NCBI RefSeq assembly: GCF_004010195.1
Contig: NC_057759.1
Span: 1,869,069-1,933,068 of the forward strand
Direction of reading: 5' to 3'
Origin: Chiloscyllium plagiosum
Taxonomy: Eukaryota
Length of the DNA: 64,000 nt
Part shown: in pieces, positions 3,997 through 49,025 of the stretch
Numbering within the stretch: the first letter of the stretch is position 1
How the letters are laid out: each line of letters begins with the position of its first letter
Position numbers and translations under genes: made by a program
Notes under the pieces: model-generated
What the model saw: only the letters and a program-made list of their open reading frames with translations
Databases searched by the model: none
Told to the model about the DNA's origin: nothing

Positions 3997-5985
3997 TCAG
4001 GGAGAACCGGGGGCTGTTTGTAAGAGGCCGAGTGGAGCAGGTACTGGTCCCGGAACTTGGAGTGAGGGGGAGGGGACAGAGAGGTCTTTCTCGGGCTGTG
4101 TGGGGGTCTGCTGAGGGAGACAGCGGGAAGAAGTATACATTCAAGCCAAGAGTCGAACACAACTGATGCAATATATTTTTTGATTTCTCCCTCTACTCAA
4201 TGCACAACAGCTCAGTTCCAATAAATGCCATGATGCTTAGTCAATTATCATTTGCAGCATCAGAAGAGGGATAGATTGTATCCTCTTATGAAATAAACAT
4301 TCAGGAACTGTATTAACTCCACATGTAATGAAGGCAATTTTAAAGGCGAACAAACAGATCATTCTGTTACATTGTTACAGCAAGGATTTCTGAAGATATA
4401 GAAGGAAACTTTGGCATTATCAGTACCTGAGAAGGACAAAACTAATGTTTTGATAAATAGAAGTCTTATGTGAAAGGCACAACTGAACAGTGTAAATTCC
4501 AAATGAACCTGTGAGCCATAGCCTGACCTACACACAATCACCATCTCCAACCCATCCTCTTATGGGTGCTTGCATACATATGCACATACACCATTCTCTC
4601 ACAGACAGCTACTGACTGATTTATAATTGTTGCAAACTTGTATGCCATCCTGAAATACTCATTCCAATATCAAAAAGTAATGAAAATCTATATACACCGC
4701 AACTAACGGAAAATATTTCAAACTGATTTCTACTCTCAGATCTCAAGTCAAAAGAAATTTACAGCACAGATTAAGTCTCTTCAAATTATTAAGTCTAACT
4801 GATCAAAGACAGTCTATAACAACATAACAGTTGACTGAGCTAACAATTCTAAGCATTCCATTTTCATAAAACTATCATGGCAGCAGAAAAGCTGTCATCT
4901 CCATCTGTATCGTAACCTCATTCTCCATTTCGTAGTTATTTTATTATTCTGTCCAGCAACAAAGTTTTTTAAAAATTATTCTATATGTATTTCAAAATTT
5001 GTTTTGATTTTCTATGAAGAGCCCTGCATTCCTGTTGACCCTCCCTTCATTATAGTACAAAAAAAAGCAAGGAATCATGATATAGTTTTCTGAAGGAGTC
5101 ATTGGAATCAGATCATTACTATTTAAAGCCTTGCAGAATGAAAGAGAAAGCCAAAATTGGTTGGTTTGTCAAGTTGCTCATTTTTTTTTCCAACATGAGT
5201 TGATATTTAAACTCCTACCTACCATAGAGCAACACAAGAGTCTGCTAACAGCTTGCACCAGATCCTGTCCACATTGGTAAATAAAATAGAATTGGCCAAT
5301 TCTCTTTCCTGTACAAGCAACACTGTGGTCAGTCAACTGCAATGCAGTTGAAGTGTTCACTTAGTTGCAAATGGGTTCGGTTAATACTGATCATTAATTC
5401 ATTGGTTAAAACATGTCACCATGCAAAAATCGATAGCATTCTGAAAACCAGACCTTGATATCCCCATTGTTCCCGTTAGACTCTGCACTACAGGAATTAC
5501 AAAAGTCCATTGCTTTTCTCCCCTGGATTCTGAAGAAAAGCACAGATGCTTTTCTGCTGCAATGTGTTGCATGTTCAGTCGTCCATGGATCCTAAGGCAC
5601 GAAAGCTAAAGAACATTGGCTGTGGACATTATTGAACTACATGTGCAGTGCCAGAGATTAACAGAAATACAAACACATCCACTTTCACAGACAGGAGCTA
5701 TCCAGTGGCAATGGATAGTACCTCTTTCATGTCAAGTAGCAGAAGTTTGAACACTGAAGTACAGTAGCAGTTACTAAAAGTTATATGTTGCAATTTGGAT
5801 GACACTGAAGCACTGTCAAACACAATAACCAAGAATAAGGAGCACATTGATATCTAGTATCAGAGAGTGAATGGTGCTGATGAACACACACTTTCTCCAC
5901 ATTCACATTCTGGTTGAGGGCCTGAGTAATGCAGAAGCATTTCCATACTTTTTTATATATGAAACACTGATTTATAAGGCATTAA

Positions 5986-8355
5986 GGAGAAAGTGAGGAC
6001 TGCAGATGCTGGAGATCAGAGCTGAAATGTGTTGCTGGAAAAGCGCAGGTCAGGCTGCATCCAAGGAACAGGAGAATCGACGTTTCGGGCATGAGCCCTT
6101 CTTCAGGAATGAGGAAAGTTTGCCAAGTGGGCTTAGATAAAAGGTAGGGAGGAGGGACTTGGGGGAGGGGCATTGGAAATGCGATAGATGGAAGGAGGTT
6201 AAGGTGAGGGTGATAGGCCGGAGTGGGGGTGGGGGCAGAGAGGTCAGGAAGAAGATTGCAGGTTAGGAAGGTGGTGCTGAGTTCGAGGTTTGGGATTGAC
6301 ACAAGGTGGGGGGAGGGGAAATGAGGAAACTGGAGAAGTCAGTTCATCCCTTGTGGTAGGAGGGTTCCTAGGCGGAAGATGAGCTGCACTTCCTCCAGCC
6401 ATCATGTTGCTATGGTCTGGAGTCGAAGGACCTGCATGTCTTTGGTGGAGTGGGAGGGGGAGTTGAAGTGTTGAGCCACAGGGTGGTTGGGTCGGTTGAT
6501 CCAGGTGTCCCAGAGGTGTTCTCTGAAACGTTCCGCAAGTAGACGGCCTGTCTCCCCAATATAGAGAAGGCCACATCGGATGCAGCAAATGATGTGTGTG
6601 GAGGTGCAGTTGAATTTGTGGCGGATATGGAAGGATCCCTTGGGGCCTTGGAAGGAAGTAAGGGGGGAGGTGTGGGTGCAATTCTTGCATTTCTTGAGGT
6701 TGCAGGGGAAGGTGCCGGGAGTGGAGGTTGGGTTGGTGGGGGCTGTGGACCTGACGAGGGAGTCACGGAGGGAGTGGTCTTTTCGGAACGCTGATAGGGG
6801 AGGGAAATATATATGCCTGGTGGTGGGGTCCGTTTGGAGGTGGCAGAAATGACGACAGATGCTACGATGTATATGGAGGTTGATGGGGTGGTCGGTGAGG
6901 ACCAGTGGGGTTCTGTCCTGGTGGTGATTGGAGGAGCGGGAAGTGGAGAAGATGTGGTGGAGAGCATCGCTGATCACGTCTGGCGGGAAATTGTGGTCTT
7001 TGAAGAAGGAGGCCATCTGGGTTGTACGGTATTGGAACTGGTCCTCCTGGGAGCAGATGCGGCGGAGACGAAGGAATTGGGAATATGGGATGGCGTTTTT
7101 ACAGGGGGCAGGGTGGGAGGAGGTGTAGTCTAGGTAGCTGTTGGAGTTGGTCGGTTTATAGTAAGTGTCCGTGTTGATTCGGTCGCCCGAGATAGAAATG
7201 GAGAGGTCTAGGAAGGGGAGGGAGGAGTCTGAGACGGTCCAGGTAAATTTGAGGTCGGGGTGGAAGGTGTTGGTAAAGTGGATGAACTGTTCATCCTCCT
7301 CGTGGGAGCACGAGGCAGCGCCGATACAGTCATCGATGTAGTAGAGGAAAAGGTGGGGGGTGGTGCCAGTGTAGCTGCGGAAGATGGACTGTCCCACATA
7401 TCCTATGAAGAGGCAGGTCATAGCTGGGGCCCATGCGGGTGCCCACGGCTACTCCTTTGGTTTGGAGGAAGTGGCAAGATTGGAAAGAGAAGTTGTTCAG
7501 AGTGAGGACCAGTTCAGTCAGTCGGAGGGTGTCAGTGGAAGGGTACTGGTTGGTACGGCGGGAAAGGAAGAAGCGGAAGGCTTTGAGTCCTTNNNNNNNN
7601 NNNNNNNNNNNNNNNNNNNNNNNNNNNNNNNNNNNNNNNNNNNNNNNNNNNNNNNNNNNNNNNNNNNNNNNNNNNNNNNNNNNNNNNNNNNNNNNNNNNN
7701 NNNNNNNNNNNNNNNNNNNNNNNNNNNNNNNNNNNNNNNNNNNNNNNNNNNNNNNNNNNNNNNNNNNNNNNNGGGGTTGTGGGACTATGAGGTTGGAGGC
7801 GGTGGATGGGAGATCCTCCGAGGTGATGAGGTTATGGATGGTCTGGGAGATGATAGTTTGGTGGTGGGAGGTGGGGTCATAGTCAAGGGGGCAGTAGGAG
7901 GAGGTGTCCGCGAGCTGGCATTTAGCCTCAGCGGTGTAAAGGTCGGTGCGCCAAACTACTACCGCGCATCCCTTGTCTGCCGGTTTGATAGTGAGGTTGG
8001 GGTTGGAACAGAGGGAGTGGAGGGCTGCACATTCTGAGGATGAGAGGTTGGAGAGGGGTGGAGAGGTTGAGGCGGTTAATGTCGCGGTGGCAGTTGGCTA
8101 TGAAGAGATCGAGGGCAAGTAAGAGGCCAGCCCGGGGTGTCCAGGTGGATGGGGTGTGTTGGAGGCGGGAGAAGGAGTCGTCAGAGGGTGGGTGAGAATC
8201 CTGGTTGAAGAAGTAGGCGCGGAGGCGAAGGCGGCGGAAGAATTGTTCGATGTCTCATTGTTGAACTCATTAATCCGAGAGCATAGGGGAATGAAGGTGA
8301 GGCCTCTGCCGAGGACTGAGTTCGAGAGGGATTGTGAAAACACGGCAGGGCTGGG
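5986..8355 (-). mobile_element. Penelope-like retroelement, Neptune clade (RT + GIY-YIG endonuclease), 5'-truncated
   Basis: ORF 6402-7421 contains YIDDC (RT), FLDL, YKPT, a CNLKKCKNC linker and CIRCGLLYIGETGR (GIY-YIG). 13-bp TSD TATAAGGCATTAA at 5973-5985 and 8356-8368. Empty site at 15926-15938. Confidence 0.95.
6072..6110 (-). ncRNA. Minimal hammerhead ribozyme motif in Penelope terminal repeat
   Basis: Reverse complement reads attc CTGAAGA a GGGC tcat GCCC GAAA C GTC gatt. Confidence 0.75.
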
Positions 8356-9164
8356 TATAAGGCATTAAACTCACCTCATAAGGTGTATCAGATCTTGGAC
8401 ATGCAGAATGGGAAACACAAGGCAACATTAAAAAAAAAGTGTCAGTGTGATAATAGACCAGTGCCACTCCTTTCAAGTGATACAGATTGGCAGCACAACA
8501 AAAAACTCACACACACAGCCAGTTAATGCTGAAAGGGGAAAAAAAATGAAATTTAGGCCCGGGTATTTCTAAATATGGACAGTTATAAATTGTTTCACCA
8601 AACCATTAATCGTTTCAGTTAGTGTCAGATGTTATATCTTATTGTCCAGCAGCAACTGATAAAGATTACTGCATACATAAAATATTTTTTAAAAAGTCTG
8701 AATGCAATAAAATTCAGATTCATGGCAAAGATAACATTAATTCCTCAATCACAAAAAGGTTAGTGAATGTTGATCAAGTTTATCCTACACTCAGACCAAA
8801 AAAAACACAACTGAACATGGAAAGACAATGAGATTCACACACTCTACCTGATGCTATTGCCCACAAAACAAAACTGGCACTATAATTATCAAAGACAGAT
8901 AACTGCAGAAATAATCTCAAATTGGCATTTAGATAGAGATACTGGCAGTGAGTGGATAAAGTTCAGAATCCCAACAGTTGATGGAAATTAGTATGGAGAA
9001 CAGGTGAAGAACAGAATGTCCCAGTCACACAAATTGGCTGAATGGCTGTACCAATTCTGTGACTCTACCATAAATGACATAATGCAGAAGAGATTAAGTC
9101 CCAATCACAACACCCTAAAATCTACTATCACAGACTCAATCACAGTCACAGAGAATTCTTTTTC

Positions 9165-9929: not shown

Positions 9930-10630
9930 ATTGATAACAGAATAAGTCAGAGTTACATTTGAGGTCGAGTAACCCTTCCTTAGAACTGAGTGTGTGCATT
10001 TTCCTAGCTGCTACATGGTCTTCTCTATTCTGGGGAAACTCAGTGTAGATTGGGTGTCCACTTTGCCAAACACCGACATTCTGTCCAGAAAACAAGACCC
10101 TGAGCTTCCACTTGCCTGCCACTTCGACACACCACCCAGTTCCCTGATGAACATCTCTGCCTCAGGCTTGCTGCAGAGCTCCAGCTAAAGCTCAGTGCAA
10201 GCTGGAAGAATAGTACCTCATTTTCTGGTTGGGAACACAACAGCCTTCTGGACCTAATACTTAGTTCTACAACTAGGGCTAGAGCTTTCCCGTGTCATTA
10301 CCTAGAACCTCTCACACCAGGCCTTGTTGTTATCACAAGGTCTGCTATTATACACCAAGTCACTAACAGTCGCTGTTAATAGTGAGTCACCTTCCTCATC
10401 TGACCATGATCTTTGGATTCTATATCCATCTACCAGTTACTCCTGACCCTTCAACATACCCTACCTTTGGCATAAAAACAAATCATTTCCTGGCTACCAT
10501 CAATTCTCAGGAAGGGTTACTGGACTGGAAATTTTAACTCTGATTTCTGTCCACTGACTCTCAGACCTGCTGAGCTTTTCCAGCAATTTGATTTTGTTTC
10601 TGATTTCCAGCATCTGCAGTTCTTTTGGTT
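9930..10630 (+). mobile_element. Degenerate Penelope-derived element with inverted ends; paralog at about 30850-31760
   Basis: GIY-YIG C-terminal remnant (ACHFDTPP...EE*YLIFWLGTQQPSG). Decayed hammerhead-like ends at about 9960-9985 (-) and 10505-10540 (+). Confidence 0.6.
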
Positions 10631-10934
10631 TTCACTTAGAGATCAATAACTACATTTTCATATTCACAGAGCAGAAACTACCAGGGAAAATTGATAACTA
10701 CATTCACATGTTCACAAAAGAAATTTGTCAGGCAAACATTGATAAATACACTCACCTTTACAATTCGGACCCTGGTTGGGAAGGATTCTTAACTAAACCT
10801 TCACAAAGCAAAACCTGACGGACTGTTAAAAACTAACTTGTCCTATTCACATAGCAGAAACTGGCAGGCTTAGATTGACAATTACCCAAACATATTCCCC
10901 AAACAAATATCCTCAGGAGGCTAAGGAAATTCAC

Positions 10935-11450
10935 CGTGTCTGGAAAGACTGCTACAATTTTTTATCAATGCACCACCTATCTGGATGTGTCACAGTGTGG
11001 TATGGCTGCTGTTCTGCCCAAGAGCACAAAGAATTACAGTCCGTTGTGAACAAAGCCCAATCCATCACTGAAAGCAGCGTTCCATCCAAAGGCTCCATTT
11101 ATACTTCCTCCTGTGTTGGGAAAGCAACCAACATAATCAAAGACCCATCTGACCCCGGTTCTGTGCTCCTCCACCCTGATCTGTCAGGTAGAAAATACAG
11201 AAGTTTGAATATACCGTCCAACAGATTCAAGAACTGATTTTGTGCTATTATTAGACTTTTGAATGGACCTCTCAAATTTTAATGTTATTCTCTCGCTCTG
11301 CACCTTCTCTGCACCATTAACACTGTATTCCAGATTCTGTTCTATTGCCCTAATGCACTTTGTATGATATGATCTGCCTGTAAGGCACTCAAAACAATAC
11401 TTTTCATTGTATCTCTGTACATGTGACAATAATAATCAGATCAAATCAAG
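10935..11450 (+). mobile_element. Rex1/Babar-type LINE 3' fragment; shorter paralog at about 31755-32185
   Basis: LSGCVTVWYGCCSAQEHKELQSVVNKAQSIT...IIKDPSDPG...SGRKYRS...RFKN, with an (ATCAA)n-like tail. Confidence 0.75.
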
Positions 11451-11991
11451 TGGATAACTACACACACATGTCGCAGAATCTGAGAGGTTCAGGTTGATAG
11501 CTACAGTCACACAACCTGACAGGAAAAGATGAATAAATACATTCAAACCCTGACATTACAGCACCTGACAGGAAGGATTGATAACTAAACTCTCTTCTTC
11601 ACAAAGCAGAAATTGAGAGTGACAGATGAAAGTTCAGCTCACACATTTACATAGCAAAAACTGGTAGGAATTGACAATTACACAGACATATTCACCAAGC
11701 AGAAACTGACAGCTATAGATTGATAACTATATTTATGTATTCACAAAGCAGAGTCTGAAAGGTCCAGATTGGCAATTACACTCTCACTTTGACAAAGAAG
11801 AAACTGACAGGTAGAGAATGATAACTGTACTATTCACATATTGACAGGGACAGATTGGTATTGACTCTCAAATTGATGTAGTAGAAACAGATTGACAATG
11901 ACACTCTGGTGTCAAATAGCAAAACCTGACAGGTACTGTTTGATAATTTCACTGAGAAATTGATTAGAGTTAAAACTGACAGGTAGAGATC

Positions 11992-12198
11992 AATTTCTGG
12001 ATTAGTGGTGCTGGAAGAGCACAGCAGTTCAGGCAGCATCCAAGGAGCTTTGAAATCGACGTTTCGGGCATTCCTGATGAAGGGCTTTTGCCCGAAACGT
12101 CGATTTCAAAGCTCCTTGGATGCTGCCTGAACTGCTGTGCTCTTCCAGCACCACTAATCCAGAATCTGGTTTCCAGCATCTGCAGTCATTGTTTTTAC
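11992..12198 (+). mobile_element. ~207-bp non-autonomous Penelope-derived fold-back element containing a hammerhead core
   Basis: Perfect 76-bp inverted arms at 11995-12070 and 12089-12164. CTGATGA-a-GGGC-tttt-GCCC-GAAAC-GTC at 12074-12101. 12-bp TSD caggtagagatc at 11980-11991 and 12199-12210. Confidence 0.85.
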
Positions 12199-13067
12199 CA
12201 GGTAGAGATCGATATCTACATTCACACAGAAGATACTGACAGGTACAAATTGATGACTGCATTTAATATTTATACAGCAGAAACTGGCAGGGAGATACTG
12301 AGAATGACACACCCGTTCTCAAAGCTGAAACTGACAGGTTCAGGTTGATAACTGCACTGTCAGATACACAGCAGAAACTGTTAGGGAAAGATTGTTAAGT
12401 AAATTCACACATTCACAACGGCAGAAACTGACAGGTATATATTGATAACTAAACTCTCACATCCCCATCAGTGTAACGCATAGGAACTGGTCCTACTTAT
12501 TTAAAATGTATTTATCAATCGGTCTCTGCCAGTTTCTACTATGTGGATAGGAGTTCAGTTATCAATCTATACCTGTCAGTTTATACTATGTGAATGTAGT
12601 TATCAATCTGTCCCTGTCACTCTCTCATAAATACATTTTGGACATTGCAGAGAGTGACAGGGACAAATGGATAACTATATTAATTCTCACATTTGCACGG
12701 CCTATACTGACAGGTACAGGTCGACAGCTGTACTCCCATATTCATCTCACAGGAACTGACAGGTATGGATTGATAAGGAAACTCTCAGATCCAGATACAA
12801 ACTTGTATTGGGTAGCCCCATTGTGGAGCTGTAGAAGTGTTGGTTAGTATCTGGTTCTCAGTGAATTGGTATAGATTTCTTTTGTTACAATCATGAGACA
12901 AAGAGCAACTCAGGCCAAGAATGTAGTCAGACCTGTAGTTCTGTCTGAAATGCTGGCTTGAAAGAAACAGCCTCACGATTATAAAATGAATATTACATTG
13001 AAAGGTTTGATATGTCAAACTCACTTAATGTTGATTTACAGGGGATGTCTCTTCTCTCTTCTTCCAG

Positions 13068-17795: not shown

Positions 17796-19811
17796 GGATG
17801 CAGGATAAATTATTCACATTAAACTGACTGACAACAGCGGTGATAAATCCAGCGCAATATTAGGGATTGAGATTAAAGCACAAATATTACTTCCAAAAAA
17901 AGGAATGTTTTCTCTAGAGCAGAGATGACTGCGGTGGGAACACATGATTGAAGTATAAGCGATTTATGAGGCGTGTGGGACAGGGTGAATAGAGAGAAGC
18001 TGTTTCCCTTGTTTGAGCGAGCAATCACAAGTGGTGCTTAGGTAATGATATGGTAAGGGTAAGGATTCTCGCTATACTGAAGGGTTAGATGTAAAGATAT
18101 TGAGGGAATTTCAGAAAAATCTTTTCACTCAGCAAGTGGTGGAAATCTGGAAGACACTACATGCGAAGGTGGTGGAGGCCAGAAACCTTTACCTTTAAAA
18201 AGTATTTGGATGAGCACTTCAAATGTCAGTTCCGGAGCCACCATTCACGGTGGGATATGAACGGTGAATATCTCCCCAGGCAAACCAAAAAGAAACGTGT
18301 CTCCGTCTTTGAGTACGAGGAGCAGATACATCTTGCGATTGGCGGTCCTTTCGTTCTATGCCAAGTAGACTCGAACCTGGGTCTCTGGCGCTGTTTTCTC
18401 CGGTTCCAGTCAATGAGGCTTTCTGCTGTCAGTGAGAGATTATCAAAATGAACGGAGATCAAACCAGAGCAGCTGCAGGACTGGGATGGCAAATGTGGAG
18501 CTTTTGCTGATGTCAGAACTAGTGCACAAAGGCTAGGCGACATTAAAATATTGTCTCAAGACGATTAATGAGCTCAGCCGGAAGAACGTTCTGTAATGTT
18601 TAATCAACATATCGGAGTGTTTTCGATATGTGAAATGAAGAGATTAATTGAAGATTGCAGTTCTTAGCGCATGCTTTTGTTTCTGCCAGTCCTTCAGGTC
18701 CAGAAAAGAGAAAAAAGTAGAAAGAGATAGATGCAGTTAGGCAAATGGATGAGCGAGAGAGATTGTCTAAAGTATATATTTATAACCTAATGAACAAGTA
18801 TTGATGAATTCCCCTCTGATCAAGGTTCTCCTTTTTTATACATACTTTTTCTATGTAAAACATACTTCGTTATTTGTGAAATGGCGGGCTTTTCAAATTG
18901 GAAGGAAAGGTGTTGATGATTTGGCGCTGGCTCCAAGAGTAGAGAATGTGCCCTCTCTTCTCCCTGCCTCTCGGGAGCATATTGAACACCAGTGAATCTT
19001 TTTTTCTTTATTACTGGTGCTATTTGCTCAAGTCACTCTCTAATATTTGATTATTCCGGGAGCGACAAGCCCCGGTTGGGGTGGGAGCCCTGAGTGTCAC
19101 CACTGGGTTCTGTTGGGTTGCAGAATAGTGTAAATGGGGCTTTCTGCTGTCGATTAGAAGTTTCCAAAACGAACCGAGATCAAACCAGAACAGTCGCCGG
19201 ACTGGAATTGTTAACGCGGAGCTTTTGCTATTTGGGAGCACGGTATTAAGATAATACCTAAAGGCGGCGTTCGTTTTTCATGCACTCACGCCGAAGAACG
19301 GTCATGAAATCCTCACAGGGCTGAATGAGAGTGTTGGTTCTCTCCGAAGACAATCTCGAATCCTTCAAATAGATTCTAGACTCATTACCCGAAAGAAAAA
19401 TTGCAAATTAATGACTAAATACGAATGCATTGTTTTGCGTAAAGCTCCCTTCTCTGATCTACATTTCGGCAGGATTTTCAAATTTGAAAGAAAACGGTTG
19501 ATGATTTGGCGCCATGTTTTCCCGCCAGCTTCCTCAGCAATGATCATACCAGCTGTAACTGGTGGGAACACCAAGGGAGACAGTGAGGACAAAGGGGATG
19601 TAATCCGGAATTAATACTGCACTACGATATGAAAATTACATAACATTTCCCAGCAGCGTATATTCTAGTCACTGCTGCTTGTACGATGTGTGTCTTCAAC
19701 TGTCTCCCCTGAAATGTTTTACTGACGTCACGCCCCCCCCCCTCATTAATATTATTCAAAGCCATTTTCCAACGTCTGCGATCGCTTCCCGCTCTCTCTG
19801 GATGGTTTAGT

Positions 19812-19827
19812 GGCTCTGAATAAAGCC
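19812..19827 (-). terminator. Degenerate histone stem-loop
   Basis: Reverse complement GGCTTTATTCAGAGCC, two changes from consensus. Confidence 0.75.
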
Positions 19828-19881
19828 GTCATGTATTTCTCTCTCTCTCTTGGTGAATGTGCAGGGCCGGCCAGGCTCCGT

Positions 19882-20094
<213 letters not shown>

Positions 20095-20582
20095 TCAGGG
20101 AACGGAGAGCCAGCCCAAGAGCTGGGATTGGATACAGCCCTGTCCCTCAACCCACAGAGAAACAGCTCCGGATGGAAAAGAAAAGGCAGGAAAAGAATTG
20201 TTGGAGTCTGATAGGTTCACTGGAAACGACAGTTGGTCAGTTTCCAAATGCCCGCTGAATTCACCCTCACAAACCTTGAGATTAAAGTAACCATTAAAAC
20301 GCAAAAACGCCATCCGTCCGCAACTAAGATAAAATTTACTATTTTATAGCAACTCCTCAAAACCTCGTTAGCAGTCAGCTTGGACAGGAGGCGTGATCAT
20401 TGCCTGATCTGTCCGTAACAGGCAGGAGGAAAAGGCGGGGTTTAAAACAGCCAGACAAACTGAACAACCGAACGTTTACCCGCCGTGAATGAGTCGAAAC
20501 AACCACGCCAATTTAAACATCTTAAAAGCTAATGCAGTATACACCGATAAAAGGACAGAATCTCACTTTATGATTAGATTAC

Positions 20583-21288: not shown

Positions 21289-21969
21289 TCATTTTTTTGC
21301 TGCTGTCTTGGTCACTTTTGCTTTGGGCTTGGCCTTGCTTTTAGCCGGTTTGCTGAGGGGTTTGGGGGTTTTAGGGCCCTTGGCCTTTTTCACCTTCTTC
21401 ACGGGAGTCCGTTTCTTTGGCGCTGCTTTGCTCACCGCTTTCTTTGGCGGTGCCGCCTTCTTGCCGCTCGCTTTCTTGGCTGGGGATTTCTTGGTTGTCG
21501 CTCTCTTGGCTGGGGATTTCTTAGCTGTCGCTTTCTTGGCCTGGGATTTCTTTGCTGTCGCCTTCTTGGCCGGTGATTTCTTCACGGCCGGTTTCTTGGC
21601 GGCTGCTGATGTTCCCGCCTTCTTTCCCGCTTTTGCCTTGACTGGATTCTTAGGGAGTTTGAAGGAGCCAGAGACGCCCTGGCCCTTGACCAGAACAAGG
21701 GAGCCGTTCGCCAGGCACCTCCTGATACTCATCTTGATCTGTGCGTTTCGCTTTCCCACATCGATCCCGCTTCTCTCCAGCGCCTTCTTTATAGCGGACA
21801 GAGACGCCCCTCTGCGATCCTTGATATCCCCGACACCCTTCAGAATCAGCTCTCCCAACCCGGGACCGGGTGTTTTCTTCCTGGGAGCCGCCGCCTTCTT
21901 CTTGGGAACCTTGGCTTTGGTGGGAGCGGCGGCTGGAGGAGCCGTTTCGGCGGCTGCACTGTCGCTCAT
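21289..21969 (-). CDS. H1: Replication-dependent linker histone H1, 226 aa, intronless and intact
   Basis: Globular domain GPGLGELILK...GASLSAIKKAL...KGQGVSGSFKL, K/A/P-rich tail with KKSPAKK repeats, and a downstream stem-loop. Confidence 0.97.
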   Translation of the reverse strand: MSDSAAAETAPPAAAPTKAKVPKKKAAAPRKKTPGPGLGELILKGVGDIKDRRGASLSAIKKALERSGIDVGKRNAQIKMSIRRCLANGSLVLVKGQGVSGSFKLPKNPVKAKAGKKAGTSAAAKKPAVKKSPAKKATAKKSQAKKATAKKSPAKRATTKKSPAKKASGKKAAPPKKAVSKAAPKKRTPVKKVKKAKGPKTPKPLSKPAKSKAKPKAKVTKTAAKK

Positions 21970-22117
21970 GTTGAGAACTCTGCGTTGAATCTTTCTCTAG
22001 GACAGTCTGAACTGGGTCAGCAATGATGCTACTGGGGGCGGCACTGAGCAACTTCAAGGCAGCGAGCGGACGGCGCAGGGACAACCAGCCGTCAGCTCCC
22101 TGCTTCTGCTGCCTCTC

Positions 22118-23924: not shown

Positions 23925-24145
23925 TGTGGAGGTGCCGGTGCTGGACTGCGGTGTGCAAAGTTAAAAATGACAACATCAGGTTATAGTCCAACAGGTTTAT
24001 TTGGAAGTACAAGCTTTCTAAATACAGACACCTGATGGAGGAGCAGCAGTTTGAAAGTTTGTATTTCTAAATGAACCTGTTGGAATATAGCTGAAAATGT
24101 GTTGCTGGAAAAGCGCAGCAGGTCAGGCAGCATCCAAGGAACAGG
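23925..24145. mobile_element. Penelope-derived short terminal-repeat elements running into an N gap
   Basis: gtccaacaggtttatttggaa / aaatgaacctgttgga inverted arms around ctgatggaggagcagc. Confidence 0.6.
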
Positions 24146-28118: not shown

Positions 28119-31100
28119 TCAGGGAGAACCGGGGGCTGTTTGTAAGAGGCCGAGCGGAGCAGGAACTGGTCCCGGAACTTGGAGTGAGCGGGCTGGGGGG
28201 AAGAGAGAGGCCTTTCTCGGGCTGTGTGTGGGCCTGCTGAGGGAGGCAGAGCGAGAAGAAGCTGCTGTGGGACATTCTTGGGGTTTGTAATCCCCTCAAC
28301 ACTGATGGGAATTCATTGTTTGGCTTCTGTTTCACGCTGTTTATTGCGAATAGACTTTGAAATAAAGGACAGTAGAAACAAATGTAATAATCCTGTGTAA
28401 GATAAATATAGCAGGCACCGGATAAACGTCNNNNNNNNNNNNNNNNNNNNNNNNNNNNNNNNNNNNNNNNNNNNNNNNNNNNNNNNNNNNNNNNNNNNNN
28501 NNNNNNNNNNNNNNNNNNNNNNNNNNNNNNNNNNNNNNNNNNNNNNNNNNNNNNNNNNNNNNNNNNNNNNNNNNNNNNNNNNNNNNNNNNNNNNNNNNNN
28601 NNNNNNNNNNNNNNNNNNNNNNNNNNNNNNNNNNNNNNNNNNNNNNNNNNNNNNNNNNNNNNNNNNNNNNNNNNNNNNNNNNNNNNNNNNNNNNNNNNNN
28701 NNNNNNNNNNNNNNNNNNNNNNNNNNNNNNNNNNNNNNNNNNNNNNNNNNNNNNNNNNNNNNNNNNNNNNNNNNNNNNNNNNNNNNNNNNNNNNNNNNNN
28801 NNNNNNNNNNNNNNNNNNNNNNNNNNNNNNNNNNNNNNNNNNNNNNNNNNNNNNNNNNNNNNNNNNNNNNNNNNNNNNNNNNNNNNNNNNNNNNNNNNNN
28901 NNNNNNNNNNNNNNNNNNNNNNNNNNNNNNNNNNNNNNNNNNNNNNNNNNNNNNNNNNNNNNNNNNNNNNNNNNNNNNNNNNNNNNNNNNNNNNNNNNNN
29001 NNNNNNNNNNNNNNNNNNNNNNNNNNNNNNNNNNNNNNNNNNNNNNNNNNNNNNNNNTCTCTCATTCTCACTCTCAGCCGAGTGTTGATGAAAGCACACT
29101 TTATGCACGCTCCCATTCTGGTTGAGGGCCTCAGTAATGCAGAAGCATTTCCATACTTTTTTAATGTATGAAACACTGATTGGTAAGACCTTAAACCTAC
29201 GTCATAAAGTGTATCAGAACTGGAATCACACAGAGACATACAGACAATGTTGGTGTGATCTCGACCAGTAGCACTCTTTAAAGTGATACAGATTGGCAGC
29301 ACAACAGAAAATTCACTCTCACTCAGCCAGTTAATGGTAAAAGGGAAAAAAAATGCAATTTAGGTCCACAACTACTTCCAGATATGGACAGTCATAAATT
29401 GACTGTCCACATTATTAATCACTTCAGAAGATGTTCATATTAGATGTTCACATTATTGCAGTGCCCAGCTGCAACTGCCAAAGACTACTACATGCACAAA
29501 ATGTAAAAAGAAAGCTGAGATTGAAAAGAATAAAATTCAGATTCTTGGCAAACATAAGTATTGAACCAACATTAATGCCTCAAGCACACAGGTTTATCAA
29601 ATATTGAACGGGTTTATCCTACACCCTGCTGAAAAAACACAACTGAACATAGAGAATGGCATCCATATACTCGACTTGTCACTGTTGCACACCGAGCAAA
29701 ACTGGCACTCGAGGTATTCAAAGTTTAATAACTGCAGAACTAATCTCAAATTGGCATTTACACTGAGACACTGGCAGTGAGTGAATGAAGATTAGAATCC
29801 CAACAATTAGTGGAAACTAGTATGGAGAACAGATAAAGAATAGAATGTCTAAGTGCAGAGACAACCGGCTGAATGGTTGTACCAATTCTGTGATTGAGTC
29901 ATAAATCACAAAATGTATAAGAGATTAAGGCCCAATTTCAACACCCTAAACACTGTTGTTGGACTGAATCTCAGTCACAGATTTTCTTTTCTCTAATTCA
30001 TTCATGGGATGAGGGCATCACTGACTCAGCCAGCATTTATTGCCTATCCCGAACTACCCATGCAGCCACATTGATGTGGGTCTGGAGTCACATGCAGGCC
30101 AGACAAGGTAAGGATGGCAGTTTCCTTCATTCAAGGACTTTACTGAACCAGATGAGGTTTTCTGGCAATCAACAATAGATTCATGGATGTCATTAGACTC
30201 TTAGAATATTATTGGCTGCCAGAGAATTGAGCAACTTTGGTATAAAAGAGTTGAACATGACTGGAACTCATTGAGAACTTCACTTTCACAGTCACACAGC
30301 AGAAACTAGCATGTATAGATCAATTCCTAAATTCTTACATGGGCACAGCAGAAATTGACATGTATACATCAAATCCTAAACTCTCGTATGGACACAACCA
30401 AAACGGACAGACATTGATTGATATCTGCTCTCACAATATTCACACTGTGGCAACTAAAAGGGAGAGAACAATAATCCCACACACACACATGACAGGTCCA
30501 GGTTGATAACTAGACTAACACATTCGCATAGCAAAACCTGACAGGTACAGTATGATAAATGAATTTGCACATTTATAAACAAGAAGCTGATAGATACAGA
30601 TTAATAACTGCACTCTCATTTGCACAGAGCAGAATCTGACGGGGACAGGTTGGTAAATAACTCTGACATGTAGTTGGCATTAAATCTCAGACAAACACTG
30701 ATAACTACACTCTCATATTCATAAAGCAGAAACTGACAGGAATAAATTGATTATGCTCCCAATATCAAATCACATAAATTGACGTGTACACTTTTATAAC
30801 GACTCTCACGTATTCACAGAGAAGAAACTGACAGGCAGAGATTGATAACAAAACAAAAATTAATGGAAAATTCACAGGTCTGGCAGTGTTTCAGGTCTAG
30901 TGACTGGTCCTCAGAACTGATGGTGGCAAGGAAAATGCACACAATGTGGTCTCCTCTATGTTAGGGAAACAGAGTAGATTGGATGTCCACAGTGCAGAGC
31001 ACCTACATTCTGCCCAGACAAAAAGACCCTGAGCTTCCAGTTGCCTGCCACTTCAACACACCACCCTGTTCCCTGGCCAAGATCTCTGTCTCAGGCTTGC

Positions 31101-31620: not shown

Positions 31621-33629
31621 ACCATGTCACCCCACTCCTCTGTCTGTCCAACTGTTCTTCTCTTTCTTTGGACTCTAACTCCATCTATCTTTTACTCGTC
31701 ACCCTTCCACCCAGCCTATCTTCTGTATAAAAACTAATATTTTCCTACCAACCACCAGAAAATACAGAAGTTTGAATACACCACCCAACAAACTCAAGAA
31801 CAGCTTCTTTGCTGTCATCAGACTTTTGAATGGACTGCTCAAATTTTAAGGTGAAAGTGGGTACTGCAGATGCTGGAGATTAGTGTCCAGATTAGAGTGT
31901 TGCTGGAAAAGCACAGCAGGTCAGGCAGCATCCGAGGAGCAGGAAAATTGACGTTTTGGACATTCCTGATGAAATGACCTGCTGTTCTTTTCCAGCACCA
32001 CTCTAATCTGGCTCAAATTTTAATGTTAATCTCTCTCTCTTTGCAGCTTCAAAACTGTATTGCAGATTCTGTTCTATTACCCTGATGCATTTTGTATGAT
32101 ATTATCTGCCTGTAAAGCACACAAAACAATACTTTCCATTGTATCTCAGTGCATGTGACAAAAAGTAAATCAAATCAAATCAAATGGATAACTACACTCA
32201 CATATTCGTATAGCAGAAGCTGAGAGGTACAGTTTGATAATTACAGTCAGACAAACTGACAGGAAAAGATGAATAAATACACTCAAACACTGATATTACA
32301 GAGCCTGACAGGGAAAGATTGATAACTAAACTCTCACATTCACAAAGCAGAGACTGATAGCGACAGGTGAAAACTCAGCTCACACATTCACATAGTAGAA
32401 ACTGAAGGATTGACAATTACAGAAACATATTCACCAAGCAGAAACTGACAGCTACACATTGACAACTATATTTATGTATTTACACAGCAGAGTCTGAAAG
32501 ATACAGATTGACAGTTACACTCACTTTGACAAAGAAGAAAATGACAGGAAGAGAATGATAACTGTATTCCAACATTCACATCACTGAACTAACTGCTACA
32601 GTTTGATTAATACAGCCACACTCACAGAGCAGAAGCTGATGGGTACTGCTCAAATAACTGTATTCACATATTGACAGGGAAGAAACTGACGGGAACACAT
32701 TAGTGTCTTCACTGTCATATTGACGTAGTCGGAACAGATTGACAATGATACTCTGGTGTCAAATAGCAAAACCTGACCTGGACTGTTTGATAATTACACT
32801 CACATGTTGATATTGCTTAAACTAACAGATAGAGGTGAATATCTTCATTTTCAAAGATTAAACTGATTGGTTCAAATTGATGACTGCATTTAATATTCAT
32901 ACAGCAGAAACTGACACGTTCTCATAGCTGAAACTTACATGTTCAGGTTGATAACTACATTCTCAGACACACAGGAGAAACTATTAGGGACAGATTGGTA
33001 AAGCAAACACACACGTTCGCAGGACAGAAACTGACAGGTATATATAGATAACTAAGCTCACATATCCACATCAGACAAACACACAGAGACTGATTGTATT
33101 TATTTAAAATGTGTTAAATGTATTTTTGAACCAGTCCCTGGCAGTTTCCTCTATGTGTATGCACGAGTTCAGTTACCAATCTGCACCTGTCGATTTATGC
33201 TATTTGAATGTATGAGTGTAGTTATCAGTCTGTCCCTATTTGTCTCTGTGGTGAGAAAATGTAAATGTATTTACCAGAGAGTAACAGGGACAGATTGATA
33301 ACTGTATTCACTCGCATATTTGCGCAGATTATATGGATTGATAATTACAGTTTGATCATTACACTCAGATGTTCACAGAGTAGCATTTAACAGGTTCATC
33401 TTGATAATTGTCTTCACACATTCGCTGAGCAGGAACTGACAGGTATGGATAGATAAGGAAACTTTCATATCCAGACACGCACTTGCATTACATTATCCCA
33501 TCCCATTTGTAGAGGAGTTGGTTAGTATCTGGTTCTCAGCGAATTGGTACAGATTTTTTTGATACAGTCACCAAAGAGCAGCTCAGGCAATAATAGAATC
33601 AGCCCTGTGGTCCTGTTGGAATTGCTGTC

Positions 33630-37250: not shown

Positions 37251-38609
37251 GAGAAGTCGGAACGTGTGCCACTGGAAAAGCACAGCAGATCAGACATCAT
37301 CTGAGGAGCAGGAAATTCGACGTTTCGGGCATAAGCTTTTCATCAGAAATTCCTGATAAAGTAATACGTATTTTTACCCTTATTTATGGTGTCCAGAAAT
37401 TTCTCGGTGAGATGTTGCATGCAGCTGTCTGTCATTTTATCCCTGTCTCCTTTTACAAACAGAGTGGAATATAAACTCCTGCAGTGTTCTGGAGCTACTC
37501 CATCACGGAAGGAGGCAAGATGAAACGGATTGGAAGATTTATGCGCCATCTCTCAGCAACCCTCACACATTCCATCCAGACAGAGTAAATGCTACCTTTC
37601 ATTTTGATATGATAAGTGATGCAAGGAAGGGATTTACTGAACCTGTTCAGCGACTATCATTGATGTCAATCTCCGTGGATTTTGTTTTACCCCAGTGGAA
37701 GGGTTTCCATCTTTTAATGATAAGTTGGCTCCATTCAATGAATTATCCCATAATATGTGTGGGAACATCACCAACAGCACTAATTGGGATCAACAGCTCC
37801 AGAGAGAGAGAGGGAGGAGAGATCAGAATCTAATAACATTAGACTGGAATGTTACAACAATGGGCGGAGTTAATCCAATTATATTTGAGGGATTTCTGCA
37901 TATTATTAGGTGTCATTATTATTGTTGATCGATTTTCTACCTTTGCTTAATATTTTTACAACTGTATCCTGGCTATCCTTGGTGTTGCTGATAAGTCTTA
38001 CTGTTCAATAAGTATTTGTATAAAAATGTATTATATTAGTGTTCATTCCTTTTACTCTGCATTCCTTGCCATCATTGTTCCTGCAGTGACTCTGAATCTA
38101 GATATTCAGTCTACAAACCCCTACTAACTGCAAGAGTGAATATATTCATTTGATCTGTCGCTCTGCTTCTGACAGTGTCCTGCTGACCTACACAGTTTTA
38201 GCTGTACCACTGCCCTTGTAATTTAAATATCGTTAGCATGATCACTGCCTTTTGTTCTGATTACAATCTCCATTTCCTTGCTCTGCTCCTGGCCAATATC
38301 TGATGCTGAGACAGACGAATCACAACTGTGGTGATTTCTTTGGCCATGAGCTGATTCCTGACAAAATACCCTGACCATTCCTAATTGTAACAGCCATCCC
38401 CTCCAGAATATACTTCACTGCATCATCCCATCTGCTACTTGAACCTTGAGCTATGAACTACAGCCTCAATGATACCACTAATCTGCTCTTGACTCTCCCA
38501 GCATCAAACCTGCAGAAGAATTTCTGAGTCGATACTCCACGGCTCGTCTCTGAACTGACACTTAAATCTCATCCCTCTGTCACACTGTGCACTGATCTGT
38601 ATTATAGAG

Positions 38610-39439: not shown

Positions 39440-40770
39440 GAAGACATGCAGAAAGAAATCTGAAAGCACATGATACATCAACTTGTGACAGAACCACTTG
39501 ATTCATTGGGACTTGAATATCAGCAGCTATTCAAATCGAGAGGAAATGTTTGCTTTTGTCTGCTTGACAGGTTTTGGACACTGGTATGGCAGGAAGAATA
39601 CGGAGACATCCGAGTGAGGGAGATTCAGTGCGCTGTCTGTGAAATGTGCTTCAAACCGTTTACTCAGCTTAGGGGATCAAACTGACACCACTCACTGTGG
39701 GGAGAAACTGTGTACACATTCTGTTTGTAATTTCAAACGCAGAGCGACACAAGGAAAGCGCCCCCAATGAGGAAACTGTGGAAATGTGGGGACTGTGGGA
39801 AAGGATTCCCGTCCCCATCAGTGCTGGAAACCCACAGACGCATTTACACTGGGGAGAGACCATTCACTTGCTCCGTGTGTGGGCAGGCATTCAGTCAGAT
39901 GGGTCATCTGCAGAAGCACCAGCGGGTCCACACAGGAGAGAAGCTGTTCACTTGCCCCATGTGTGGGAAGGCATTTGCTCAATCATCTGCACTACTGATC
40001 CATAACAGGGTCCACACCAGGGAGAGGCCATTCACCCGCTCTCAGTGCGGGAAGGGTTTGTGAATTCTTCCAACCTGCAGACTCACCAGCGGGTCCACAC
40101 CGGAGAGAGGCCATTCACGTGCTTGGTGTGTGGGAAAGGGTTCGCTTATTCATCTGCACTGCTGATCCACAAGCGGGTCCACACAGGGGAGAGGCCATTC
40201 ACCTACTCTCTGTGCGGGAAGGGATTCATTGATTCTTCCAGCCTATGGACCTACCAGCGGGTCCACACGGGAGAGAAACCGTTCATGTGCCAGTATGTGG
40301 GAGGGGGTTCACGGAGTCTCTAAACTCCTGATCCACCAGCGGGTCCACACTGGGGAGAAGCCTTCCATCTGCTCAGTGTGCAGGAAGAGATTCAGTCAGA
40401 TGGGACAGCTGCAGAGGCACCAGCTGGTTCACATGGGAGAAAAGCCGTTCACGTGCCCCTGTGCAGGAGGGGGTTCACAGAGTCATCTACAGTGCTGACC
40501 CACCAGCGGGTCCACACACAAGAGAAGCCTTTCACCTGCTCAGAGTGCGGAAAGGGATTCAGGCAGTTGGGTAACCTGCAGTCGCACCAGCAGGTCCACA
40601 CCAGGGATTGGCCATTCACTTGTCCCGAATGCAGGAAGGCATTCAGTCATGTCAGGAACTTGCAGACACACCAGTGAGTCCACACGGGAGAGAAGCCATT
40701 CACTTGCCCGAGTGCTGGAAGGGATTAATTGATGCCTGCGGATGAATGAGCAGGTCCACACTGGGGACAG
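39440..40770 (+). pseudogene. C2H2 (Kruppel-type) zinc-finger terminal exon, about 11-12 fingers, frameshifted
   Basis: Acceptor ttatttttgcAG at 39439. Repeated CxxC..F..L..H...H with TGEKPF linkers spread over several ORF frames, at least 3 frameshifts, a stop near 40675, and Cys/His losses. Confidence 0.9.
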
Positions 40771-42810: not shown

Positions 42811-44719
42811 TGGGAAGAATGGGTTACAGTTCGTAGGACACTTGACATCAGTCCTGGTGAAGATGGGATTTGTGCTGTCTCTCCCTCCACCCTCTGCCCC
42901 CCCCCCCCCATTCTCTCCACTCCCACATTCAGCCCCACCTTCTATCCCTCTGTCCATTTTCTCTGTCTCCCCCCACCCTCTGCACCCATCTATTCTCTCA
43001 CCCTTCCCACCCCCATCCTTTCTCATGCTTCAAGTCCTCTTTGATCACTGTATCAAGCCCTTTTCAAGAACACAGGGAGAATGGATGGTGATGACTCGAT
43101 CTGGGAGATATGAGTGCATGAGAAATGGCTGGCCTTTAAAATTGAGAATAGCTAAAATGATATCTTTAGCAACATCATAAAAGACTGAAAGCATGTTCAC
43201 TTTTTTTAAAAAAGCTTCAGAATTCTTCGAAAAAATTGCTTGAAATATGCGCAGTTAGGCCACGGCTGAGGACAGGCTGTAAGGGGTGAATGGTCTATTC
43301 AAAGTCTTGTGCAATTGGTTCCGACTATGTAGAAATCGGGCCATAGAGTTGTGAGGCATGCAAACAAACCTTTTGATCCACACCAACAAGATATCCTAAA
43401 TTAATATAGTGACCTATTTGCCAGCATTTGGCCCATATCGCACTAAACCCTTCCTATTCATATACCCATCCAGATGCCTTTTAAATGTTATCATTGTAGC
43501 AGCCTCTACCAGTTCCTCTGGCAGCTTATTCTATTCGCACACCACCCTTTGCATGAAAAGGTTACCCCTCAGCTCCCTTTTAAATCTTCACGCTCTCACC
43601 GTAAAGCTATGCCCCTCCAGATTTGGACAGCATTCTACCCTGGGGAAACACATACAAAGGTTGAGCCCCCAGACAAACTGTAAACAGAATGAAATAAAAT
43701 ATCGAGCCATGGTAGGGAAAGAAAATTGTGACTGCAGCCCTTTTTCTAAACAATTGGCATTTAGACACTTTAAATTTGTCAGTAGCACCAGCATCTTCAC
43801 ATTGCATACAGTGCATGCTCCTCAGAGTCAGCAAGCACTGTGAATGTTCACCGGTGTCAGCAAAATAATGTGCATGCTCCTTGCTCACCGCGGAAATGGC
43901 CTGCGACATTTTTTAATGGACCAATGAGGGAGCCCTGGACAACCGGAAGGTGTGTGGTCCTCCTGCCAGTCACAACCCTCCTTTTGTCTGAATGCGGCCA
44001 TTGGACCATGAGCTTTGGAAGTTGCTGCTCCTCTCTCTGAATGAAGATTGAGCTTCACCCCAGACTGCAACTTACTCTGGCCAATATCTGTGTGTACAGC
44101 AGTCTCTTTTCTCACCCAGTTTTCCAATTCTTTGTTTCATTCTGGGATTCAATTGTTGACTTGCAGGAACTGAAAGGAAAGGGAGTGAATCCAGGGAGGG
44201 TACAGACTCTGGAAAAGTCGTCCAGGTCTGGGTCTCAATTGGCAAACACATGGCAAATGCAGGACCACAGTATGAAGTTATAACCTTTGCTGCAAAAAAA
44301 AGCAGAAAAGAGGTGTAAGGTTTAAATGGTGATATATTGGGATGTGGAGAAAGTGAGGACTGCAGATGCTGGTGATCAGAGTCAGAAAGTTTGGCGCTGG
44401 AAAAGCGCAGTAGGACAGGCAAAATCTAAGGAGTAGGAGAAGTGATGGATCGGGCTTGAGCCTTTCGTCAGGAATGACATGTGGACGTACAAAGGCGCCT
44501 CTGTGTCCTTCTACACCAGTCAATGTCAGTTGTCAGGTAGGTGCAGCAAGCAATGAGATTGGCAAGAGGAATGGAGTTCAGAAGTGGGGATGTCTTCCTG
44601 CAGTTAGGGGGTCATTGAATATATTCAAGGCTGAGTTCATCTGATTTTTGAACAACAAAGAAGTGGATGGTTCTGGGGAAAGGCAAGAAAATAGTTTTAT
44701 GACCAGTACAGAACAGTTA

Positions 44720-47700: not shown

Positions 47701-49025
47701 TGGGGTGTTACGGTAGGGAATTGTAACTTTCCAAACATAGACTGAGACTGCCATAGTTTAAGGGTTTGAGTACTGTAGATGCTGGAGATTAGAGTCGAGA
47801 GTGTGGTGCTGGAAAAGCATAGCATGTCAGGCAGCACCCGAGGAGCAGGAAAATCGATGAAGGGCTTTTGCTGGAAACATTGATTTTCCTGCTTCTCGGA
47901 TGCTGCCTGACCTGCCGTGCTTTTCCAGCCCCAAACTCTCGAACCTAAAAGTTGAAGCTCTAAATTGGAGCAAGGCTAATTTTGACGGTATTAGACTAGA
48001 ACTTTCAAAAGCTGATTGGTGACAGATGTTTGCAGGTCAAGCAATGGCAGGAAAATGTGAAGCCTTCAAAAATTAGATAACGAGAGTCCAGAGACAGTAT
48101 ATTTCTGTCCAGGTGAAAGTAAAGGCTGGTAGGTAAAAGAAATGCTGGGTGACTAGAAAAATTGAGATTTTCGTTCAAAAAAAAAGACAGAAGCATACGA
48201 CAGGGGTAGACAGAAGAGATTGAGTGAATCCCTCGAGTATAAAGTTAGTAGGAGTATATACTTAAGAGGGAAATCAGGAAGGCAAAAAGGGGACAGGATG
48301 TAGCTTTGATAAATAGGGTGAAGGAGTGCCTGAAGGGTTTTTATAAATACATTAAGGACAAAAAGGTAACTAGGGAGAGAATAGGGCCCCTCAAAGAATA
48401 GCAAGGCAGCCTATGTTTGGAACTGCAGGAGATGGGGGAGATGATAAACAAATATTTTGCATCAGTGCTTACTTTGGAGAAGGGCATGGAATTTCAAAAA
48501 TGTGGGGAAATAGACGGTGACATTTGAAAAATGTCCATATTAGAGAGGAGGTGGTGCTGGATGTCTTGAAATGCACAAAAGTAGATAAATCATCAGGACC
48601 TGATCAGGTGTACCTTAGAACCCTGTGAGAAGCTCGAGAAGTGATTGCTCGGGCCCCTTGCTGAGATATTTCCATTATTGATAGGCACAGGTGAGGTGTT
48701 GGAAGACTGGAAGTTAGCTACCGTGGTGGTACTGTTCAAGGAATGTGGTAAGGAAAAGACCAGGATCGGTGAGCCTGACTATGATGGGTAAGTTGGAGGG
48801 AATCCCAAGGGACAGGATTTGCATGTATTTGGAAAGGCAATGACTGATTCCAGATAGTCAGCATCACTTTATGCATGGGAAATCATGTCTCACGAATTTG
48901 ATTGAGTTTTTTGAAGAATTAACAAGGAGGATTGATGAGGGAAGAGCAGTGGACGTGATCTATATGGACTTCAGTGAGGGATTCGATAAGGTTCCTCATG
49001 GGAGAGTGGCTAGCAAGGTTGGCAA
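44720..49025 (+). mobile_element. Cluster of CR1 LINEs, including a long copy with ORF1 (zinc-finger/esterase-like) and ORF2 EN/RT, rearranged, with a nested Penelope fold-back at about 47768-47945
   Basis: MAFRGVICSSCQMWEF, GDSPVRG, HIGTN-like, YFNARGL, HGKSCLTNLIEFFEE...DVIYMDFS.GFDKVPH. Confidence 0.88.

What the first reader, a model, noticed from the sequence alone, without database searches (positions are those of the whole stretch)
11980..12210. Young fold-back mini-element: perfect 76-bp hairpin around an intact minimal hammerhead core
Seen: perfect inverted arms (11995-12070 / 12089-12164), a central CTGATGA-A-GGGC-TTTT-GCCC-GAAA-C-GTC, a 12-bp TSD, and an empty paralogous site near 32825. 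Known: Penelope-like elements carry minimal type I hammerheads with a loopless stem III that are thought to cleave as dimers. Inference: this is a ~200-bp non-coding ribozyme-bearing element mobilised in trans, or an extreme 5'-truncation/inversion product. Its RNA could switch between a long hairpin and the ribozyme fold.
Basis: partly seen in the sequence, partly recalled or inferred. Interest (0 to 1): 0.7.

Follow-up and report, generated by a model that had tools for sequence, protein, structure and literature searches.

The report
Fold-back stub of Penelope retrotransposon
This perfect hairpin with a hammerhead motif is a real, 204-base mirror-image stub of a very abundant Penelope-type jumping gene, an insertion shape already described, and it was likely written by two separate copying starts joined head to head rather than being a new ribozyme element of its own.

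Summary
In detail: perfect 76-bp arms (11995-12070 / 12089-12164), a minimal hammerhead core (12074-12101), a 12-bp TSD and an empty paralogous site at 32826-32837. Inverted 5'-truncated copy + one-sided 30-40 nt tail + TSD is the published shape of endonuclease-bearing Penelope-like element (PLE) insertions. The forward arm is 81% identical to the end of a decayed RT/GIY-YIG element at 5985-8356. The family is huge (18,000-40,000 contig records per public run), has a fixed tail end, 5' ends clustered at an initiator-like motif at the hammerhead's front edge, and variable inversion joints. In the window's three two-armed copies the tail is always on one arm, once the longer and twice the shorter, which favours two independent priming events over a self-propagating hairpin. 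A hairpin/ribozyme switch is not supported: the hairpin wins by about 30 kcal/mol and buries the catalytic half. Verdict: new member of a known kind. This scan has already reported the same thing many times on other DNA (251 notes, 22+ genomes).

The parts
11980..11991 (+). left target-site duplication (12 bp exact; 11980-11994 if 15 bp with one CpG-type mismatch)
11995..12070 (-). inverted, tail-less arm: positions +20 to +95 of the PLE end (A12070 = +1); holds only the 3' half of the hammerhead
12069..12070 (+). head-to-head joint; 1-2 bases can belong to either arm; same joint in the copy at 31962
12070..12198 (+). forward copy, +1 to +129 of the PLE end; 81% identical over 119 nt to the end of the long element at 5998-6111(-)
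12074..12101 (+). minimal type I hammerhead core, 4-bp helix II (12082-12093), palindromic loopless helix III (12097-12100), predicted cut after 12101
   Evidence: features compared with PMC4209133
12165..12198 (+). 34-nt one-sided PLE tail; its end is the fixed 3' end of the family
   Evidence: PMC8557442, PMC11167929
12199..12210 (+). right target-site duplication
32826..32837 (+). empty paralogous target site (single copy of the target) in a duplicate of the host repeat region
5985..8356 (-). related long copy: 5'-truncated, frameshifted RT + C-terminal GIY-YIG with CX4CxxC linker, hammerhead end, 13-bp exact TSD (5973-5985 / 8356-8368); the type of element that supplies the enzyme
31850..32011 (.). 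second two-armed copy: same joint, tail on the shorter-start (left) arm, internal deletion in the right arm, 13-bp TSD
47765..47945 (.). third, older two-armed copy: tailed arm starts within 2 nt of the predicted hammerhead cut, tail-less arm starts at +7

Best explanation
This is a young, non-coding, dead-on-arrival stub of a Neptune/Nematis-type Penelope-like retrotransposon, likely made in one insertion event in which both nicked target strands primed reverse transcription near the front end of the element's RNA and the two short cDNAs were joined head to head. Shown: the anatomy (TSD, inverted tail-less arm, forward arm with 34-nt tail), the kinship with an RT/GIY-YIG element, the fixed tail end and the variable joints. 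Inferred: (1) the GIY-YIG domain nicked the two strands 12-15 nt apart; (2) the bottom strand primed at the outer RT start (+129, tail included) and ran off the RNA at +1, an initiator-like motif just before the hammerhead, so the template was uncut RNA; (3) the top strand primed at the inner start (+95, no tail) and stopped at +20; (4) the two 3' ends met through 1-2 bases of microhomology and were filled in. Because +20..+95 is copied twice, two RNA molecules (or one used twice) are needed. The hammerhead is a passenger: in a read-through transcript of this locus it is predicted to be locked in the hairpin.
For: Published PLE shape: inverted 5'-truncated copy next to the 5' end and a 30-40 bp tail at one end (PMC8557442, passages; PMC3846280, passages: inverted pLTR, 31-bp tail, 8-10 bp TSD). 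In vitro, a PLE protein nicks and extends both strands and starts RT at two internal sites whose spacing is the tail (PMC11167929, parts 1-2). Related long copy with YIDD, CX4CxxC linker, CxxC-YIG and its own 13-bp TSD; atlas top hit 0.95 to HTH_animal/GIY-YIG/RVT_1 clusters. 3 of 3 two-armed window copies have the tail on one arm only; it is on the arm reaching further 5' in 1 and on the other arm in 2. 5 of 7 independent window insertions with a readable 5' end start between -2 and +7 (12070, 31962, 37350, 59116/44476 counted once, 47856; the other 2 are the long copies at 738 and 6111; the copy at 24140 is cut by an N gap and the one at 10504 is another subfamily, both left out). In both long copies +1 is the A of a YYANWYY match, and in the 6110 copy the only run of 5 or more A/T in 301 nt lies at -33 to -28 (both motifs recalled). 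Public runs: 39,508, 18,489 and 33,134 contig records laid; loose ends with unrelated flanks (agreement about 0.35) pile up behind 12199 (317, 327, 221) and before 12069/12070 (154; 143+137; 179); 13 of 15 joints shown (of 155) join the two arms, all at different positions. Summed depth drops 5.8, 4.2 and 6.0-fold across the hammerhead's front edge.
Against: No whole genome was held, so joint and end counts rest on 7 window events and on truncated tables. The arm-to-arm joints have short sides (23-35 letters) at 90% likeness, which the tool flags as repeat-prone. The depth profile dips as much where subfamilies diverge (6024-6044), and no loose-end row at 6110/6111 is among the 18 shown of 1,780. 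The loose letters before 12070 share a few last bases between runs, so many copies run several bases further and the 5' end is a cluster, not one base; an extra cap-derived G is not seen in those consensus rows. The initiator motif occurs 6 times in 301 nt of UTR; no transcription start was mapped, and Drosophila Penelope has a TATA-less internal promoter (PMC2377424, passages). The long copy is a different subfamily (81%), and its Pfam GIY-YIG hit (E 0.0044) is below the curated cut-off. Perfect arm identity could be helped by assembly polishing; no public record spans this exact locus.
Confidence: 0.62

Rival explanations
1. Same identity (PLE stub) but made by fold-back self-priming or a template switch: one cDNA folds on itself, or RT jumps onto the cDNA it has just made, and copies it back.
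For: Self-priming is the published proposal for head-to-head PLE palindromes (PMC3846280, passage). It explains perfect arm identity from a single RNA and fits this locus taken alone (the tailed arm is the longer, the loop is unique to it).
Against: It predicts that the second arm is a subset of the first. In the copies at 31850 and 47765 each arm holds sequence that the other lacks (tail on one, more 5' sequence on the other). It does not explain why the second arm stops at the tail boundary.
Confidence: 0.2
2. A self-propagating non-autonomous fold-back element or retrozyme-like unit: the whole 204-nt hairpin is transcribed and re-inserted by PLE proteins in trans.
For: The same joint appears twice in one window (12070, 31962). 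Outer ends are fixed. Head-to-tail joints of the ~123-nt unit occur in 4, 2 and 4 contigs of three runs. Non-autonomous PLE derivatives are described (bioRxiv 10.64898/2026.07.22.740005, part 1 and passages; PMC7229834, passages).
Against: The second copy with this joint is about 80% identical and carries its tail on the opposite arm. Joints vary. The locus is a monomer with one complete core, not a tandem. The hairpin buries the inner RT start and the catalytic half.
Confidence: 0.1
3. The locus is a functional RNA that switches between long hairpin and active hammerhead, or a source of small RNAs.
For: Core nucleotides are intact; helix II is stable in the forward arm alone (pair probability 0.96); a 76-bp perfect duplex would be a Dicer/ADAR substrate if transcribed (general knowledge).
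Against: Hammerhead fold costs 29.7 kcal/mol; helix II probability is 0.00 in any transcript that includes the left arm and reaches 12101. In the one raw RNA run laid (about 2% read), 1,209 of 1,211 reads fit only partly and the flanks had zero depth, so these reads come from other copies. Single minimal hammerheads showed no cleavage in vitro (PMC4209133).
Confidence: 0.05
4. Assembly or library artefact (chimeric fold-back read).
For: Perfect palindrome in an assembly; no public record spans it.
Against: TSD, empty paralogous site, one-sided 34-nt tail and two older, decayed two-armed copies in the same window.
Confidence: 0.03

Closest known systems
Complex insertions of endonuclease-positive PLEs (D. 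virilis Penelope; Adineta vaga Pen2a, PMC3846280; overview Fig. 2 legend in PMC8557442)
   Same: Inverted 5'-truncated copy adjacent to the 5' end, 30-40 nt tail on one side only, variable-length TSD, hammerhead in the terminal repeat.
   Different: No ORF at all: the whole insertion is 204 nt, and the forward copy begins at the hammerhead's front edge.
Minimal type I hammerheads of metazoan PLEs (Cervera and De la Pena 2014, PMC4209133)
   Same: Core, extra base between positions 9 and 10.1, G10.1-C11.1 pair, palindromic 15.2-16.2, no loop 3; that paper already notes opposite-strand pairs 100-700 bp apart and many single motifs from truncated PLEs.
   Different: Helix II is 4 bp, helix I very weak, and the adjacent inverted arm is predicted to sequester the 3' half.
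Poseidon of Anolis (PAc) in vitro, PMC11167929
   Same: Two RT starts shortly downstream of the hammerhead whose spacing equals the tail; both strands nicked and extended; uncut RNA is the main template.
   Different: Different clade; the parts I read (1-2 of 4) do not propose how head-to-head insertions arise.
Non-LTR retrozymes (PMC7229834; bioRxiv 10.64898/2026.07.22.740005)
   Same: Short, non-coding, hammerhead-bearing, PLE-derived.
   Different: Retrozymes are head-to-tail tandems with a hammerhead in each unit; this is a head-to-head monomer.
LINE-1 twin priming (recalled; not read here)
   Same: Both target strands prime; inversion with microhomology at the joint; TSD.
   Different: In L1 the two cDNAs cover different parts of the RNA; here they overlap, giving a palindrome.

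Membership tests
EN+ Penelope-like element insertion | Kin element encodes RT with C-terminal GIY-YIG endonuclease | tested here: met
   Long copy 5985-8356(-): YIDD, CxxC-x3-YIG; Pfam GIY-YIG E 0.0044, below cut-off; atlas 0.95; end 81% identical to the stub. Met for a sister subfamily, not the exact parent.
EN+ Penelope-like element insertion | Inverted 5'-truncated copy immediately at the 5' end | tested here: met
   definition in PMC8557442
EN+ Penelope-like element insertion | 30-40 nt tail on one end only | tested here: met
   34 nt, 12165-12198
EN+ Penelope-like element insertion | Variable-length target-site duplication | tested here: met
   12-15 bp here, 13 bp at the long copy and at 31850; empty site
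Neptune/Nematis clades | CX2-5CxxC motif in the RT-EN linker | tested here: met
   CX4CxxC at residue 249 of the 348-aa frame; definition
Neptune/Nematis clades | RT phylogeny separating Neptune from Nematis | not tested
Minimal type I hammerhead (min-HHR) | Core bases, extra base 9/10.1, G10.1-C11.1, palindromic 15.2-16.2 | tested here: met
   against PMC4209133
Minimal type I hammerhead (min-HHR) | Helix I of 4-5 bp | tested here: inconclusive
   2 pairs, U.U, one further pair; core alone folds no better than shuffles (z -0.92)
Minimal type I hammerhead (min-HHR) | Self-cleavage (as dimer or protein-assisted) | not testable with these tools
   needs in vitro assay
Rfam hammerhead families | Covariance-model score at gathering threshold | tested here: not met
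   0 hits in the window; none of 18 hits at E up to 10 in 11900-12300 is a hammerhead
Non-LTR retrozyme | Head-to-tail tandem with a complete hammerhead in at least two units | tested here: not met
   single core, head-to-head; tandem joints exist only in a few other contigs
MITE / fold-back DNA transposon | Symmetrical terminal inverted repeats reaching both ends | tested here: not met
   34-nt overhang on one side; arms are a retroelement end
microRNA precursor | Rfam family score | tested here: not met
   best 48.2 bits against a gathering score of 74; shape-only matches

The most novel reading that the evidence does not exclude
These stubs are a fossil record of the unsolved PLE copying cycle: a dimeric RT-endonuclease primes both target strands from two fixed internal starts near the 5' end of uncut RNA, and run-off ('strong-stop'-like) cDNAs that fail to jump to the RNA's 3' end are joined head to head. 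That one model would explain the inverted arm, the one-sided tail and the pile-up of 5' ends at the hammerhead's front edge, and it replaces the published self-priming proposal. I did not find it in print in my searches, but earlier agents of this scan proposed it on other loci.
Probability: 0.5. Interest if true: 0.55.

Novelty: new member of a known kind. Interest (0 to 1): 0.25.

Why it matters
As an object it is ordinary: one of a very large number of PLE end stubs. Its value is as a clean, unmutated example (76 of 76 arm identity, exact TSD, empty site) of an insertion shape whose origin the field still lists as undefined (PMC8557442). If the two-start, both-strand model is right, such stubs make the PLE cycle testable by counting alone, and the purified-protein system of PMC11167929 can test it directly.

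Tried and rejected
Whole-genome copy count: no genome held. Rfam scans: nothing at gathering; only shape-driven microRNA matches below threshold. Global MAFFT of filled and empty site misaligned across the insert and was replaced by a long-gap pairwise alignment. Exact 28-nt core in metagenome contigs: 0; a 20-nt arm motif gave 17 metagenome loci, all chance matches that do not extend, and 0 viral loci. No RNA holder listed for the locus. RNA run X22 laid 0 reads on 5940-6540, no test. No place where many molecules begin or end in either lay; poly(A) single-cell reads and contigs are unsuited to show a ribozyme cut. Joints near the predicted cut (two rows ending at 12102; rows from 6109/6110 to 6075/6076) were not counted: their kind or the letters between are unclear and a subfamily difference lies beside them. 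TSDs for the older copies at 47765, 59116, 44346 and 37350 were not recoverable above background. Literature searches that found no paper on this model or on shark hammerheads: 'Penelope + twin priming' (3 unrelated papers by listing), 'hammerhead ribozyme + elasmobranch' (0), 'Penelope + shark + inverted repeat' (8, listing only), 'Penelope-like + inverted + template switch + pLTR' (17, listing only). Subscription papers (for example the 2006 PLE survey cited by these papers) and bioRxiv supplements were not visible and may already describe such stubs.

Full report
Observation. The arms at 11995-12070 and 12089-12164 are exact reverse complements over 76 bp around an 18-nt centre; no other perfect inverted pair above 17 bp with a short spacer exists in the window, and none of 200 shuffles folds as well. 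The hammerhead core lies at 12074-12101. The 12-bp direct repeat at 11980-11991 and 12199-12210 is exact and extends to 15 bp with one CpG-type mismatch. The host DNA is a decayed repeat of about 48 bp, so I tested chance: no other of 58 anchored unit sites has this 12-mer, 4 of 1653 site pairs are identical over 12, and 0 of 400 random boundary pairs score as well. A paralogous region has one copy of the target at 32826-32837 and lacks 219 nt, the insert plus one duplication.

What it is. The forward copy (12070-12198) is 81% identical over 119 nt to the end of a longer element on the minus strand at 5985-8356. That element is 5'-truncated and frameshifted, encodes an RT (YIDD) followed by a CX4CxxC linker and a CxxC-YIG endonuclease motif, resembles HTH_animal/GIY-YIG/RVT_1 clusters in the atlas (0.95; Pfam GIY-YIG only E 0.0044, below cut-off), and has its own exact 13-bp TSD. 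The linker motif places it in Neptune or Nematis (PMC8557442, passages). A profile of the end finds 13 matches at E below 1e-4 in the window. In three public DNA runs 39,508, 18,489 and 33,134 contig records fit the stub at 90% or better. That the host is a shark rests on recall and on earlier notes of this scan, not on a test of mine.

Family boundaries. The tail end is fixed: loose ends with unrelated flanks pile up behind 12199 (317, 327, 221 records) and at the equivalent 5984-5986 (2,871, 3,106, 1,807). The 5' ends cluster at the hammerhead's front edge: 5 of 7 independent window insertions with a readable 5' end start between -2 and +7 (two copies left out, one cut by an N gap, one of another subfamily; 59116 and 44476 counted once as a 92% duplicate), loose ends pile up before 12069/12070, two contig pieces spanning 5985-6111 sit inside unrelated sequence, and summed depth falls 4-6-fold across that edge. 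Against over-reading: only 24 of 898 and 18 of 1,780 loose-end rows were shown, none at 6110/6111; depth also dips where subfamilies differ; and shared last letters of the loose ends show that many copies run a few bases further. Position +1 is the A of an initiator-like YYANWYY match with an A/T run at -33 to -28 (motifs recalled; 6 such initiator matches in 301 nt). Inversion joints vary: +20/+1 here and at 31962, about +31-33/+7 at 47856, a 12-nt inverted piece at 37350, and 13 different arm-to-arm joints among the 15 of 155 shown (short sides, repeat-prone).

Mechanism. All three two-armed copies in the window have the tail on one arm only; here it is on the arm that reaches further 5', at 31850 and 47765 on the other. 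In those two, each arm has sequence that the other lacks, which simple fold-back self-priming (PMC3846280, passage) does not produce. A purified PLE protein nicks and extends both strands, starts RT at two internal sites whose spacing is the tail, uses mainly uncut RNA and is predicted to be a dimer (PMC11167929, parts 1-2 of 4). The simplest reading, which is inference, is that staggered nicks gave two primers; one copied from +129 and ran off the RNA at +1, the other copied from +95 and stopped at +20; the ends met through 1-2 shared bases. The repeat of the same joint at 31962, in an 80%-identical subfamily and with the tail on the opposite side, points to a recurrent joint and not to copying of one hairpin master. 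I took the twin-priming and transcription-start wording from earlier notes of this scan and tested them only on this window and these runs.

The ribozyme. The motif has every sequence feature of the minimal hammerheads of metazoan PLEs (PMC4209133, parts 1-2 of 4), including a self-complementary loopless helix III; helix I is weak and Rfam does not detect it. In a transcript that includes the left arm, helix II, GAAA and the cut triplet are inside the 76-bp duplex: the hammerhead fold costs 29.7 kcal/mol and helix II probability is 0.00 once the chain reaches 12101, against 0.96 for the forward arm alone. A switch is therefore unlikely. The one informative RNA run (about 2% read) shows family reads but none on the flanks.

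Comparison and verdict. [quoted passage not shown] It is not a retrozyme (no tandem), MITE or microRNA. It is a new member of a known kind, and this scan holds 251 notes in at least 22 genomes on the same theme and 2,410 matching notes in this genome. Interest 0.25; the mechanistic reading would merit about 0.55 if confirmed genome-wide or in vitro.

Noticed in passing
window 10504-10636 (+): Older, diverged hammerhead-type PLE stub that also begins at the motif's front edge; its tail is followed by host repeat in nearly the same register as the finding's right TSD (79% over 58 nt). Target preference or chance, unresolved.
   Followed up: partly
window 47856-47857: The tailed arm of this two-armed copy starts at, or within 2 nt of, the predicted hammerhead cut: a possible record of a cut RNA template.
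   Followed up: partly
window 37350-37362 (-): Stub preceded by a 12-nt inverted piece that makes a short palindrome centred on the +1 region.
   Followed up: partly
window 44000-44674 and 58911-59599: 92% identical inverted segmental duplicate of about 690 nt that carries one PLE stub.
   Followed up: yes
window 54375-55369 (+): Second, different PLE (RT C-terminus and GIY-YIG-like frames, no CX2-5CxxC linker seen, Poseidon-like); no hammerhead core found after it by the relaxed scan.
   Followed up: no
window 10600-12800, 30490-30850, 32200-33300: Decayed ~48-bp repeat arrays in both orientations, duplicated as larger blocks; high copy in public runs.
   Followed up: partly
window 21289-21996 (-): Intact-looking histone H1 ORF; histone H2B-like frame at 19750-20211 on the minus strand; C2H2 zinc-finger arrays at 39846-40707 and 63104-63739.
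   Followed up: no
public runs X1, X3, X7 laid on window 5940-6540: Head-to-tail joints of the ~123-nt hammerhead-to-tail unit (6107 to 5985) in 4, 2 and 4 contigs: rare retrozyme-like tandem dimers.
   Followed up: no
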